Origin: Escherichia coli
GTDB taxonomy: Bacteria; Pseudomonadota; Gammaproteobacteria; Enterobacterales; Enterobacteriaceae
NCBI RefSeq assembly: GCF_044647545.1
Contig: NZ_CP172818.1
Reading direction: 5' to 3' (one strand)
DNA length: 64,000 nucleotides
Shown here: in pieces, positions 2,276-3,912 of the stretch
How the letters are laid out: each line of letters begins with the position of its first letter
Numbering within the stretch: position 1 is the first letter of the stretch
The notes under the pieces: model-generated
Databases searched by the model: none
What the model was told of the DNA's origin: nothing
What the model saw: only the letters and a program-made list of their open reading frames with translations
Translations under genes and position numbers: made by a program

Positions 2276-3692
2276 ACCGACTCCTGATTCAAATGTATGA
2301 TGGTATTCATTGAACAGAACAATGGATCCCCCACCGTTGCTGACCGCAAAACATTTACGCGATTAATACTGCGCGTAATATAATTAAAAATCCAGCATTC
2401 TCAATCCATTACGAAATAAGATGGCATTACGGAATAGCCAGACTTTCTCGTGTTAACGTCCGACAAAATGCGTCATTGACAGCGGTTTCTGTGGATTGAC
2501 ACATTTCATTCAGATAATGAATTAATGCTACTGCCGGAACAACCAGCAAACGGGCATTGTGTTCTGAAATCCAGGCTATTGATTCAACGTCAGCGACAGA
2601 TCTGCGCTGTAAAAGAACTTGTAAAACAACGTAATAGAATTATCCGGAATGGTGGCCTAGAACACCACAATTTCGCTCTCTCGGTAAGGCACTGTCACAG
2701 CATTCAACAGAATGTGACTTGCCAGATTTATTAGCGCCACCAGATGTTTAACCGGGTAACCACGACCCAGTCGGGGATATATTCCATCTTCTCGCTGACA
2801 TCATCAAGAATAAAAAGGTTTATCACACTCAGAGCAACGTTCTTCAGCAGGCGGGATAATTCTTCAACATTTAGAAGATGTGTTATTAAAGGCATACAAA
2901 CTGGACGTATTGTATTTTCTTTTGGTGGTTGACCTAAGGTAGCAGTTTATCCTGATGCGCTGAGATTTCTGTAATATCTACGTCAACATTCTCCTCGAAT
3001 AGAAAATGCAGCCCCGGCAAGTGATTCACATTTTTTAACAAAACGTTGTTAGCGTGCCATTTTCAGAAGCTCTCCAAGAAAGCGAATTCTTTTCTCAAAT
3101 TCTGCATTCTCAGACACAGCTTTCTACTCCATGGTAATGGCCCAAATACGAAGTTGCTCAGGATCATTAGTGGTGCTGAGAAGTTAAATAACCATGCGGA
3201 GTACCACTCGTCATCACGTATTTATATATCATGAAGCTATTGTTGTGTTTTGTACATCAGTAGATATATTCTGATATACTCCTTTTGCTAGACATAACCT
3301 TTCACCTGCTTGCAAAGCTTCTGTGTTCTGACATTGCCAAATTGTTGCAATTCTGTATCCAGCCTTCTTTCAGTCATAGCTTCGGGCCGCGATAAGACTC
3401 ACTGATCTGACCCTGATTCCTCTTGCAGACTTTATAGACCAATTAAAATGCAGTTTCTGCAGGTCAACGTCTGACCATCATTGTCATCACTCTGGCCATT
3501 AGAGTAACCTTCTGCATTCATCCTTTTGTAAAAAGTTTATATTAGTATCAGCAATTAACCGGACCTGATACTGATATGAGTCTTACCGCATATACGGTCA
3601 ATTTCAGCAATTAATTACATTATCCACGCCAAAGTATTTGTCATCACAATGATGGTACCTTCTTTCAGACACCATTTTTTCAACTCCGTTTT

Positions 3693-3731
3693 CCACGGAC
3701 CGCACTCTTATGTCAAGAGTGCGGTCCGTGG
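3693..3731. repeat. Perfect 17-bp inverted repeat with 5-nt spacer (ccacggaccgcactctt atgtc aagagtgcggtccgtgg)
   Basis: Read directly from sequence; arms are exact reverse complements; no flanking T-run on either strand. Confidence 0.9.
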
Positions 3732-3883
3732 ATACAACCAGAGACCGACTGACACGAGTCAGAGGAAACGACGGATATGTTCAGTCGTAAAATATCTATC
3801 AAAAAACATGATTAAGGTCAAAAATGTTTGATATTTACAATTTATGAAGATGACAATAATTATAGATATATGAGAACATAAAT

Positions 3884-3912
3884 GAAAATAATTATCATTA
3901 CAGCAATCATTT
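3884..3912 (+). promoter_or_regulatory. Candidate Fur box (gaaaataattatcattacagcaatcattt) upstream of the TonB-dependent receptor pseudogene
   Basis: Resembles the Fur consensus GATAATGATAATCATTATC; lies in an AT-rich stretch just 5' of a receptor N-terminus; not verified. Confidence 0.3.

What the first reader, a model, noticed from the sequence alone, without database searches (positions are those of the whole stretch)
2276..3900. 1.6 kb between cobU and the receptor pseudogene has no intact ORF and no IS5
The interval has only short, low-confidence ORFs, becomes strongly AT-rich towards 3900, and contains protein-like fragments on the minus strand (for example MPLITHLLNVEELSRLLKNVALSVINLFILDDVSEKMEYIPDWVVV). 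That is consistent with decayed prophage genes. From memory, MG1655 carries an IS5 copy (b1994) between cobU and yoeA; no IS5 terminus (ggaaggtgcg) or InsH ORF is present here. This may be the prophage left boundary in a state without that insertion.
Basis: partly seen in the sequence, partly recalled or inferred. Interest (0 to 1): 0.35.

Follow-up and report, generated by a model that had tools for sequence, protein, structure and literature searches.

The report
Gene-wreck spacer lacking K-12's IS5
The 1.6 kb between cobU and the broken receptor gene is an ordinary stretch of dead gene and insertion-sequence fragments found in most E. coli, and lacking the IS5 copy is the normal state because that insertion is peculiar to the K-12 lineage.

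Summary
Window 2276-3900 has no ORF longer than 75 aa and no IS5 end or InsH gene, and GC falls to 0.30 near 3900. MG1655 carries IS5 with a CTAG duplication exactly at window 2657-2660. Of 5,426 complete E. coli genomes, 371 share that insertion and 3,641 have the site uninterrupted.

The interval is not decayed phage DNA. Read on the minus strand it holds:
- the cobUST promoter;
- a 3' fragment of a cobalamin (cbi) gene;
- an IS4-family transposase fragment;
- an IS110-family remnant;
- the AT-rich promoter region of a TonB-dependent receptor gene that is intact in other strains.

This block occurs in genomes without the K-12 island. By comparison with those genomes, the island's left junction lies at 5774/5775, not in this interval.

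One oddity remains. The empty site also lacks 9 bp (GACTATGCA) that every other genome has. The window as a whole looks like a non-K-12 isolate assembled on an MG1655 scaffold, so I read the 9-bp loss as a probable assembly artefact.

Verdict: already known, low interest.

The parts
1730..2275 (-). cobU coding sequence, the left anchor of the interval
   Evidence: 181-aa ORF. Annotated as cobU at the matching position in MG1655, HS-01, ATCC 11775 and MS6198.
2377..2404 (-). cobUST promoter-like site, TTGAGA-16-TATATT
   Evidence: Consensus scan, 10 of 12 matches. The same hexamers are listed as the constitutive sigma-70 promoter of cobUST in Shimada et al. 2014, PMC3946193.
2427..2570 (-). 3' fragment of a cobalamin-biosynthesis (cbi) gene, a pseudogene lacking its N-terminus
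   Evidence: The RefSeq (PGAP) annotation calls it 'cobalamin biosynthesis protein, incomplete, missing N-terminus' at this position in five genomes. Translation. The homologue search returned only E. coli fragments with that name. No Pfam or NCBIfam hit, so its identity as cbiP is inferred from its position upstream of cobU.
2579..2758 (-). IS4-family transposase internal fragment with an internal stop; it contains the IS5 target site
   Evidence: RefSeq annotation in HS-01, ATCC 11775, O157 and MS6198. NCBIfam NF033592 matches at E=4.7e-5 over profile positions 137-191 of 332, far below the family cut-off, as expected for a fragment.
2657..2660 (.). CTAG, the unoccupied IS5 target. MG1655 has IS5 plus a second CTAG here. 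The 9 bp GACTATGCA found in other E. coli are missing between 2656 and 2657.
   Evidence: Junction sequences compared. No genome of 5,426 has the window's junction. All 18 metagenome contigs carry the 9 bp.
2753..3195 (-). IS66-family TnpC remnant: the first ~150 codons, covering the leucine-zipper and zinc-finger region, with frameshifts and stops.
   Evidence: 71% DNA identity to plasmid IS66-family elements. The 198-aa ORF at the matching position of L008 carries LZ_Tnp_IS66 and zf-IS66, and the uninterrupted homologue in L007 also carries DDE_Tnp_IS66. Motifs such as SEKMEYIP, ISAH.DKLLP and KKCESLAG are shared.
3229..3313 (-). Last ~28 codons of the IS66-family tnpB (orf2). It overlaps the 'yoeG' promoter TGTACA-17-CATGAT at 3228-3256.
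   Evidence: tblastn of L008 TnpB residues 107-126, E=8e-4. DNA homology extends to 3310-3313. Promoter hexamers from PMC3946193 were located by reading the sequence.
3305..3554 (-). 3' non-coding end of an IS110-family element (remnant)
   Evidence: 68% identity to the sequence downstream of the IS110-family transposase gene of plasmid pRHB15-C23_2 (L007 2848-3143).
3555..3725 (-). C-terminal ~55 codons of an IS110-family transposase (remnant with internal stops)
   Evidence: tblastn with the L007 transposase (Pfam DEDD_Tnp_IS110 + Transposase_20): residues 284-337 of 339, 48% identity, E=3e-9. No homology beyond 3732.
3692..3732 (.). Perfect 18-bp palindrome (arms 3692-3709 and 3715-3732) at the truncated end of the IS110-family remnant
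   Evidence: the repeat finder pair I1, 100% complementary. RNA fold -41.1 kcal/mol, z-score -8.2. Present in all six E. coli loci checked. No T-run follows, and the terminator scan does not list it.
3733..3937 (.). AT-rich regulatory region upstream of the receptor gene, with a minus-strand promoter TTTTCA-18-TATAAT (3888->3859) and several plus-strand promoter-like sites
   Evidence: GC 0.30. Promoter scan. Shimada et al. list this hexamer pair for 'yoeH' and mark H-NS binding between yoeH and insD-3.
3938..4243 (+). 5' part of the TonB-dependent receptor gene (yoeA in K-12), cut by IS2
   Evidence: 100% identical to the start of the intact 715-aa receptor gene of MS6198 (L010 5138-7285). 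Annotated as a C-terminally truncated receptor pseudogene in K-12.
4244..5575 (-). IS2 inserted in the receptor gene (5-bp duplication), the right anchor of the interval
   Evidence: Annotation in MG1655. Receptor homology resumes at 5576-5774 and overlaps the left part by 5 bp.
5576..5774 (+). Second receptor-gene fragment. Homology to the intact gene ends at 5774, which is the comparative left junction of the K-12-type island.
   Evidence: 100% over 199 bp to MS6198. From 5775 the sequence matches island DNA that ATCC 11775 joins directly to window-equivalent 3866.

Best explanation
The interval is a conserved non-functional spacer that has collected wrecked genes.

How it probably formed:
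- When the E. coli lineage lost the cbi part of the cobalamin operon, a stub of the gene upstream of cobU was left behind (inferred).
- Insertion sequences then landed and were truncated in turn. What remains is an IS4-family fragment, an IS66-family fragment (the end of tnpB plus the start of tnpC), and the 3' end of an IS110-family element that abuts the IS66 fragment.

What probably still works lies at the two ends: the cobUST promoter on the left, and on the right the AT-rich, H-NS-bound promoter region of a TonB-dependent receptor gene.

IS5 inserted into the CTAG inside the IS4 fragment only in the K-12 lineage. The isolate behind this window simply lacks that insertion, as most E. coli do.

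The extra 9-bp loss at the empty site is most likely an error from building this sequence on an MG1655 scaffold. The anatomy and the population counts are shown directly. The order of the decay events and the artefact reading of the 9 bp are inferred.
For: IS5 polymorphism:
- MG1655 has IS5 with a CTAG duplication at window 2657-2660.
- 371 of 5,426 genomes carry IS5 at this junction. 3,641 have the site contiguous.

Anatomy:
- cbi fragment and IS4-family fragment from RefSeq annotation of five genomes. IS4 HMM match at E=4.7e-5.
- IS66-family homology at DNA and peptide level, with Pfam domains in the plasmid homologues.
- IS110-family C-terminus at E=3e-9, plus the 3' non-coding end.
- Promoters found by the scan and listed in PMC3946193.

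Not K-12-island DNA:
- The block is identical, apart from the 9 bp, in ATCC 11775 and MS6198, and differs by 2 substitutions in O157:H7. These genomes have different neighbours.
- Receptor homology continues to 5774.

Artefact reading of the 9 bp:
- The window has 0 mismatches to MS6198 almost everywhere MS6198 has homologous DNA (exceptions: 12467-13641 and the yefM-yoeB gap at 24552-24718), and 0 mismatches to K-12 exactly where MS6198 has none. That includes the K-12 laboratory marker wbbL::IS5.
- The switch points sit within 2-8 bp of the ends of homology.
- RefSeq genome HS-01 shows the same scaffold pattern with a different underlying isolate, and its junction at the same IS5 site is also damaged.
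- The window's allele is absent from 5,426 genomes and from 18 metagenome contigs.
Against: - The cbi fragment could not be tied to cbiP by any profile or full-length homologue.
- The window contains non-K-12 sequence at the yefM-yoeB site. It is therefore not a plain SNP-only consensus, and I do not know the exact assembly procedure.
- I could not derive a 9-bp error from simple ambiguity in placing the alignment, which is only 4 bp (the CTAG). A real private 9-bp deletion remains possible.
- Constitutive promoters reported inside the wreckage (for yoeG and yoeH) mean some transcription of the relics cannot be excluded.
Confidence: 0.85

Rival explanations
1. One reading: the fragments are decayed prophage genes, and the interval is the left boundary of the CP4-44 cryptic prophage, caught before IS5 inserted.
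For: - The interval lies next to K-12 island genes: yeeP, flu and yeeRSTUVW.
- From my memory, not tested here, the K-12 database annotation lists these pseudogenes under CP4-44.
- The site is indeed IS5-free.
Against: - Every identifiable fragment is a transposase or a cbi-gene fragment. None is a phage gene.
- The phage collection gave no real match. The one hit is a 285-bp, 100% identical stretch in a 2.5-kb unannotated 'Campylobacter phage' record.
- The block is present and near-identical in genomes where the receptor gene is intact and followed by other genes.
- Island sequence starts only at 5775.
Confidence: 0.07
2. The 9-bp loss is a real footprint of imprecise IS5 excision. The segment descends from a K-12-type chromosome that carried IS5, and loss of the element removed IS5, one CTAG and the adjacent GACTATGCA.
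For: - The only two IS5-free sequences with a lesion in exactly these 9 bp are the window and HS-01. Both carry K-12-type sequence around the site, including IS2 in the receptor gene.
- All genomes and metagenome contigs without that context keep the 9 bp.
Against: - Both sequences look like MG1655-scaffolded assemblies of unrelated isolates. Their shared K-12 context is therefore most simply the reference itself.
- At most 1 bp of microhomology exists at the breakpoints (sequence).
- The flanks 1405-4243 are identical in K-12 and MS6198, so descent cannot be read from them.
Confidence: 0.07
3. The 9-bp deletion is a real private mutation in an isolate that never carried IS5 at this site.
For: - The site lies in a dead IS4 fragment, so a deletion there would be neutral.
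- The isolate behind the window differs from MS6198 by a few other small changes.
- The 9-bp loss is not explained by alignment ambiguity, which is only the 4 bp of CTAG.
Against: - Not seen in 5,426 genomes or 18 metagenome contigs.
- It sits exactly at the edge of a reference-specific 1.2-kb element, where scaffolded consensus methods are error-prone. HS-01 shows a second, different lesion at the same place.
Confidence: 0.2
4. Part of the wreckage has been kept for a function. Candidates are the 54-aa ORF (annotated as hypothetical protein WP_001128468.1 in some genomes), or a transcript from the yoeG or yoeH promoters that includes the IS110-type non-coding end or the 18-bp hairpin.
For: - The interval shows 0-2 substitutions between genomes that I place, from memory, in four different phylogroups.
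- Sigma-70 promoters were reported in vitro for yoeG and yoeH.
- The hairpin is very stable and is conserved.
Against: - The low divergence extends over cobS and cobU as well (1405-4243). It looks like a shared recent haplotype rather than selection on the relics.
- The interval tolerates IS5, IS1, ISEc8 and IS1203 insertions in different lineages.
- No Rfam match at E<=1 and no Pfam match.
- The ORF is an out-of-context piece of TnpC.
Confidence: 0.04

Closest known systems
E. coli K-12 MG1655 cobU - insH6 (IS5) - yoeG - yoeH - yoeA::IS2 locus
   Same: Same sequence, base for base, from window 1405 to 5258, apart from one substitution (3904) and the IS5 site. It has the same cbi fragment, IS fragments, receptor 5' end and IS2. 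The gene order cobU, insH-6, yoeG, yoeH, insD-3 is given in PMC3946193.
   Different: MG1655 has IS5 (1,195 bp) plus a CTAG duplication and keeps GACTATGCA. The window lacks all 1,208 bp.
Ordinary IS5-free allele of the same locus (for example ATCC 11775, MS6198, O157:H7 TR01)
   Same: Identical over window 1-3866 (ATCC 11775) or 1-4243 (MS6198) apart from the site itself. This is the majority state, found in 3,641 genomes.
   Different: These genomes read GGTGGCGACTATGCACTAGAACACC. The window has lost the 9 bp GACTATGCA. O157 also carries ISEc8 and IS1203 inside the interval.
IS66-family elements on enterobacterial plasmids (Salmonella pSA20121591.1, locus L008; E. coli pRHB15-C23_2, locus L007)
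   Same: About 71% DNA identity over window 2753-3310. The order is the same, with the end of tnpB followed by the start of tnpC, and TnpC N-terminal motifs are shared.
   Different: The window keeps only about 560 bp. It has no tnpA, no DDE domain and no terminal repeats. Several stops and frameshifts are present, and Pfam no longer recognises it.
IS110-family element of plasmid pRHB15-C23_2 (locus L007, 339-aa transposase)
   Same: The last 55 codons (48% identity, E=3e-9) and about 250 bp of 3' non-coding end are homologous. In both places the element lies inside IS66-family sequence.
   Different: The window lacks the DEDD catalytic domain and most of the gene. The insertion point in the IS66 sequence differs: the window equivalent is about 3310, against about 3085 in L007.
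cbiP-cobU junction of the Salmonella cob operon (from established knowledge of the cbiA-P cobUST operon; not fetched here)
   Same: A cobalamin-gene 3' end lies directly upstream of cobU in the same orientation.
   Different: Only 47 codons remain in E. coli. I could not confirm homology to CbiP with the tools used.

Membership tests
IS5 insertion (as in MG1655 b1994/insH6) | IS5 terminal inverted repeats (GGAAGGTGCG...) | tested here: not met
   The termini occur only at 36615 and 37809 (wbbL::IS5). None lie in 2276-3900.
IS5 insertion (as in MG1655 b1994/insH6) | InsH transposase ORF | tested here: not met
   No ORF longer than 75 aa in the interval. The alignment to MG1655 shows the whole element is absent.
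IS5 insertion (as in MG1655 b1994/insH6) | Duplicated 4-bp target CTAG flanking the element | tested here: not met
   A single CTAG at 2657-2660. MG1655 has two, one on each side of IS5.
Cryptic prophage CP4-44 (membership of the interval in the island) | Phage-derived genes or homology to phage genomes | tested here: not met
   No real match in 50,697 phage records. All fragments identified are transposase or cbi fragments.
Cryptic prophage CP4-44 (membership of the interval in the island) | Presence of the interval only where the island is present | tested here: not met
   The interval is present next to cobU in MS6198, which has an intact receptor gene followed by non-CP4-44 genes (ibrB-like and others), and in O157:H7 TR01. 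Comparative junction at 5774/5775.
Cryptic prophage CP4-44 (membership of the interval in the island) | Attachment-site direct repeats bounding the element | not tested
   I did not search for direct repeats shared between this interval and the right end of the island.
IS66 family (remnant) | tnpB (orf2) followed by tnpC whose N-terminus carries a leucine-zipper and a zinc-finger region | tested here: met
   Collinear DNA homology to the end of tnpB plus the start of tnpC of L008. The L008 ORF carries LZ_Tnp_IS66 (1.4e-14) and zf-IS66 (4.6e-12). The window copy is recognisable only through these homologues, not by Pfam directly.
IS66 family (remnant) | DDE_Tnp_IS66 catalytic domain, tnpA, terminal inverted repeats and an 8-bp target duplication | tested here: not met
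   Homology stops at 2753 and at about 3313. There are no matches to TnpA or to the DDE region. It is therefore a fragment, not an element.
IS110 family (remnant) | DEDD (RuvC-like) N-terminal domain and Transposase_20 domain | tested here: not met
   Only residues 284-337 of the 339-aa homologue are matched. Nothing lies beyond 3732.
IS110 family (remnant) | Homology to the C-terminus and the adjoining non-coding end of a bona fide family member | tested here: met
   E=3e-9 at protein level and 68% identity over about 290 bp at DNA level to the L007 element, whose protein has both Pfam domains.
IS4 family (fragment) | Match to an IS4-family transposase profile | tested here: inconclusive
   NF033592 at E=4.7e-5 and 22.6 bits against a cut-off of 115 bits, over profile positions 137-191 of 332. 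RefSeq annotates it as an IS4-family pseudogene. Pfam gives nothing.
cbiP / cobyric acid synthase (fragment) | Sequence homology to full-length CbiP/CobQ | tested here: inconclusive
   RefSeq's label is 'cobalamin biosynthesis protein, missing N-terminus'. There are no Pfam or NCBIfam hits. The homologue search returned only E. coli fragments.

The most novel reading that the evidence does not exclude
The 9-bp loss could be real, marking imprecise IS5 excision from a K-12-type chromosome segment. HS-01's different lesion at the same 9 bp would then be a second, independent footprint. Together they would be natural examples of IS5 loss with damage to the flanking sequence.
Probability: 0.07. 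Interest if true: 0.3.

Novelty: already known. Interest (0 to 1): 0.08.

Why it matters
It matters little biologically. The locus is an annotated pseudogene and insertion-sequence graveyard, and whether IS5 is present is a routine strain polymorphism.

The practical value is a caution for later readers of this window. The sequence appears to be a non-K-12 isolate laid over an MG1655 scaffold. K-12-specific features in it (IS2 in the receptor gene, flu, the O16 genes with wbbL::IS5) and small anomalies at the edges of reference-specific elements (the 9-bp loss) should not be read as biology without read-level support.

Tried and rejected
- Six-frame Pfam scan of 2276-3960 at E<=10: nothing. 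The relics are too decayed for direct profile detection and were identified only through plasmid homologues.
- Phage collection search: a single hit to 285 bp in a 2.5-kb unannotated 'Campylobacter phage B14' record, which I judged to be E. coli contamination.
- Rfam scans of window 1-12000 and of the IS110-bearing plasmid locus at E<=1: only IS102/IsrC at 6619-6822, outside the interval. There is therefore no recognised RNA in the IS110-type non-coding end.
- Fur-box consensus with up to 3 mismatches: no match in the window. I make no Fur claim for the receptor promoter.
- Homologue search with the 47-aa cbi fragment: only E. coli fragments.
- NCBIfam on the cbi, IS66 and IS110 pieces: nothing useful.
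- Exact-pattern scan of genome contigs for the 41-bp palindrome: 0 hits, although every E. coli locus fetched here contains it. I treat that scan as uninformative.
- Extending the IS110 homology into 3733-3950: the score was below the mean of shuffled controls.
- Treating the window as a natural or laboratory K-12 x wild-strain recombinant: rejected as less likely. The K-12-identical blocks coincide with the ends of homology to within 2-8 bp on each side, and they carry the laboratory marker wbbL::IS5. An unrelated RefSeq assembly shows the same design.
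Full report
**The observation**

The window starts in cobT, cobS and cobU on the minus strand. cobU ends at 2275. Between 2276 and 3900 the ORF list holds only ORFs of 31-75 aa. GC falls from about 0.50 to 0.34-0.30 towards 3900. The IS5 terminus occurs only at 36615 and 37809, far away in wbbL. The description is therefore accurate.

**Comparison with MG1655**

Megablast against 5,426 complete E. coli genomes matches the interval at 100% in K-12 strains, but in two pieces. In MG1655 the annotation between cobU and the receptor pseudogene reads: a cobalamin-gene fragment, an IS5 transposase, a receptor 5' fragment, then IS2.

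Direct alignment places the IS5 insertion at window 2656/2657:
- MG1655 reads GGTGGC GACTATGCA CTAG [IS5] CTAG AACACC.
- The window reads GGTGGC CTAG AACACC.

**How common each state is**

A 201-bp probe across the MG1655 left junction is covered in full in 371 genomes. Those listed include K-12 laboratory derivatives and O16:H48 strains. A 201-bp probe across the window's junction is contiguous in 3,641 genomes. The IS5-free state is therefore the norm and IS5 is a lineage-specific insertion.

Other lineages carry other elements in the same interval:
- IS1A in strain G5, with the 9-bp duplication GGTGGCGAC.
- ISEc8 at window-equivalent 2537-2544 and IS1203 at 3262-3265 in O157:H7 TR01.

The spacer tolerates insertions, which argues against function in its interior.

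**What the interval is made of (minus strand, from cobU outwards)**

1. A promoter-like site TTGAGA-16-TATATT at 2404->2377. The same hexamers are listed as the constitutive cobUST promoter by Shimada et al. 2014 (PMC3946193).
2. 2427-2570: RefSeq annotates a 'cobalamin biosynthesis protein, missing N-terminus' pseudogene. By its position upstream of cobU it is most simply the stub of the last cbi gene of the ancestral operon. I could not confirm this by profile or homologue search.
3. 2579-2758: an IS4-family transposase internal fragment according to RefSeq, with an independent weak match to NF033592 at E=4.7e-5. The IS5 target CTAG lies inside it.
4. 2753-3313: a distant DNA search of plasmids found about 71% identity to sequence next to IS66-family tnpB genes in 346 plasmids.
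   - In Salmonella plasmid locus L008 the matching stretch is the end of tnpB plus a 198-aa ORF carrying LZ_Tnp_IS66 and zf-IS66. In E. coli plasmid locus L007 the homologue continues into a DDE_Tnp_IS66 domain.
   - The window's minus-strand frames spell the same protein in pieces. LLSTTNDPEQLR......KKCESLAG...DITEISAHQDKLLP and ...DDVSEKMEYIPDWVVV correspond to LLSTTSDPEQLR......KKCESLAG...DIAEISAHLDKLLP and ...NEVSEKMEYIPARVVV.
The remnant's start codon is at 3195, and a stop follows three codons later.
5. 3305-3725: the 3' end of an IS110-family element.
   - The last 55 codons match the 339-aa transposase of L007 at 48% identity, E=3e-9. That protein has both DEDD_Tnp_IS110 and Transposase_20 domains.
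   - About 250 bp downstream match its non-coding end at 68%.
   - Homology does not extend past 3732.
   - A perfect 18-bp palindrome (3692-3709 / 3715-3732) sits at this truncated end. It folds at -41 kcal/mol and is present in all E. coli loci examined, but no T-run follows it.
6. 3733-3937: the AT-rich stretch. It lies directly upstream of the start codon (3938) of a TonB-dependent receptor gene that is intact (715 aa) in MS6198. It holds the TTTTCA-18-TATAAT site that Shimada et al. list for 'yoeH', with H-NS binding marked. The AT-richness is thus the usual composition of a horizontally acquired, H-NS-bound promoter region, not a sign of decay.

**Is it the prophage boundary?**

No phage homology was found. 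The block lies next to cobU in genomes with quite different neighbours:
- Window 1-3866 is identical to the type strain ATCC 11775, apart from the 9 bp.
- Window 1-4243 is identical to MS6198, apart from the 9 bp.
- 2276-3900 differs from O157:H7 TR01 by two substitutions.

After IS2 (4244-5575), 199 bp of receptor gene follow (5576-5774, 100% to MS6198). Only at 5775 does K-12-island sequence begin, and ATCC 11775 joins that same sequence to window-equivalent 3866. By comparison, the island's left junction is at 5774/5775, inside the receptor gene. The interval under study lies outside it.

**The 9-bp anomaly and the nature of the window**

No complete genome has the window's junction. The best match is HS-01 at 98.5%, reading GGTGGCGCGCTAG. 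The rest are at 95.7%, the difference being a 9-nt gap. A pattern allowing 0-9 bases at the site found 18 metagenome contigs, all with 9 bases.

To judge whether the loss is real, I compared the whole window with MG1655 and with MS6198.
- The window is collinear with MG1655 from end to end.
- It has 0 mismatches to MS6198 almost everywhere MS6198 has homologous DNA (exceptions: 12467-13641 and the yefM-yoeB gap at 24552-24718), and differs from K-12 by 1-11% there.
- It has 0 mismatches to K-12 exactly where MS6198 has no counterpart: 4244-5258, about 7000-11600, and 36157-44911. The last block is the O16-specific genes, including the K-12 marker wbbL::IS5.
- The switches lie within 2-8 bp of the ends of homology. 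The last K-12 mismatch is at 36156 and the MS6198 alignment ends at 36164. The MS6198 alignment restarts at 44910 and the first K-12 mismatch is at 44912.

Homologous recombination would not place both crossovers at the very edge of homology. MS6198 also has about 72 kb where the window has 8 kb of K-12 sequence.

RefSeq genome HS-01 shows the same design with a different underlying isolate. It is fully collinear with K-12, has 0 mismatches in the O16 block with wbbL::IS5, and is 1-10% divergent elsewhere. It too has a damaged junction at the IS5 site.

I conclude that the window most likely comes from an assembly built on, or patched with, MG1655. The isolate genuinely lacks IS5 here. The 9-bp loss is most likely an error made while removing a reference-specific element.

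The window does contain non-K-12 sequence at the yefM-yoeB site, so the method was not a plain SNP consensus. I could not reproduce the 9-bp error from alignment ambiguity alone. A real private deletion (about 0.2) or an excision footprint (about 0.07) remains possible.

**Comparison with what is known, and verdict**

The locus is the annotated K-12 region cobU - insH6 - yoeG - yoeH - yoeA::IS2. The fragments are already flagged as pseudogenes in RefSeq. The IS5 polymorphism is ordinary.

What this work adds is a finer anatomy and a caution about where the window came from. The anatomy identifies the IS66-family and IS110-family origin of the unannotated 2753-3725 and places the comparative island junction at 5774/5775. 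Nothing here points to a new kind of element or mechanism.

Novelty: already known. Interest: low.

Noticed in passing
window 1-64000 (blocks 4244-5258, ~7000-11600, 36157-44911): The window looks like a non-K-12 isolate (MS6198-like) assembled on or patched with an MG1655 scaffold. It is identical to MS6198 almost everywhere MS6198 has homologous DNA, and identical to K-12, including wbbL::IS5, exactly where it has none. The switch points are flush with the ends of homology. RefSeq genome HS-01 (NZ_CP172817.1) has the same design.
   Followed up: yes
window 2656|2657: The 9 bp GACTATGCA are missing next to the empty IS5 target. The allele is absent from 5,426 complete genomes and from 18 metagenome contigs. 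HS-01 has GCG in place of the same 9 bp.
   Followed up: yes
window 3692-3732: A perfect 18-bp palindrome with a 5-nt loop (-41 kcal/mol as RNA) sits exactly at the truncated end of the IS110-family remnant. It is conserved in K-12, G5, HS-01, ATCC 11775, O157 and MS6198. Its origin (fold-back duplication or original sequence) and any role are unresolved.
   Followed up: partly
window 2537-2544, 2648-2656, 2657-2660, 3262-3265: The spacer is a landing pad for different insertion sequences in different lineages: ISEc8 and IS1203 in O157:H7 TR01, IS1A in strain G5, and IS5 in K-12.
   Followed up: partly
window 1405-4243 versus 1-1404: From mid-cobS to the receptor gene there are 0-2 substitutions among K-12, ATCC 11775, O157:H7 and MS6198, whereas cobT and the rest of cobS differ from K-12 by 2.7% (38 of 1,404). 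This suggests a recently shared haplotype with a recombination breakpoint near 1404.
   Followed up: no
L007 2848-4330 (plasmid pRHB15-C23_2) and window ~3305-3313: An IS110-family element sits inside IS66-family tnpC in the plasmid. In the window a related remnant abuts the IS66-family remnant at a different position (in the end of tnpB). This hints that this IS110 group prefers IS66-family sequence as a target.
   Followed up: no
phage record MG065683.1, bases 1-285: A 2.5-kb unannotated 'Campylobacter phage B14' record holds 285 bp that are 100% identical to window 2656-2940. This is probably E. coli contamination of that record.
   Followed up: no
window 5259-5569: The left part of the IS2 copy differs from K-12's IS2 by about 20 changes, including indels that split the first ORF (insC). 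Nine of the variant positions are shared with the diverged IS2-like element at the same site in HS-01.
   Followed up: partly
window 24520-24730: The yefM-yoeB toxin-antitoxin genes of K-12 are absent. About 210 bp of different sequence takes their place, ending in a stretch that looks to me like a REP element (not checked). It is similar but not identical to MS6198.
   Followed up: partly
window 6619-6822: Rfam IS102 RNA (IsrC in K-12) matches in full at 252.6 bits, just upstream of flu.
   Followed up: no
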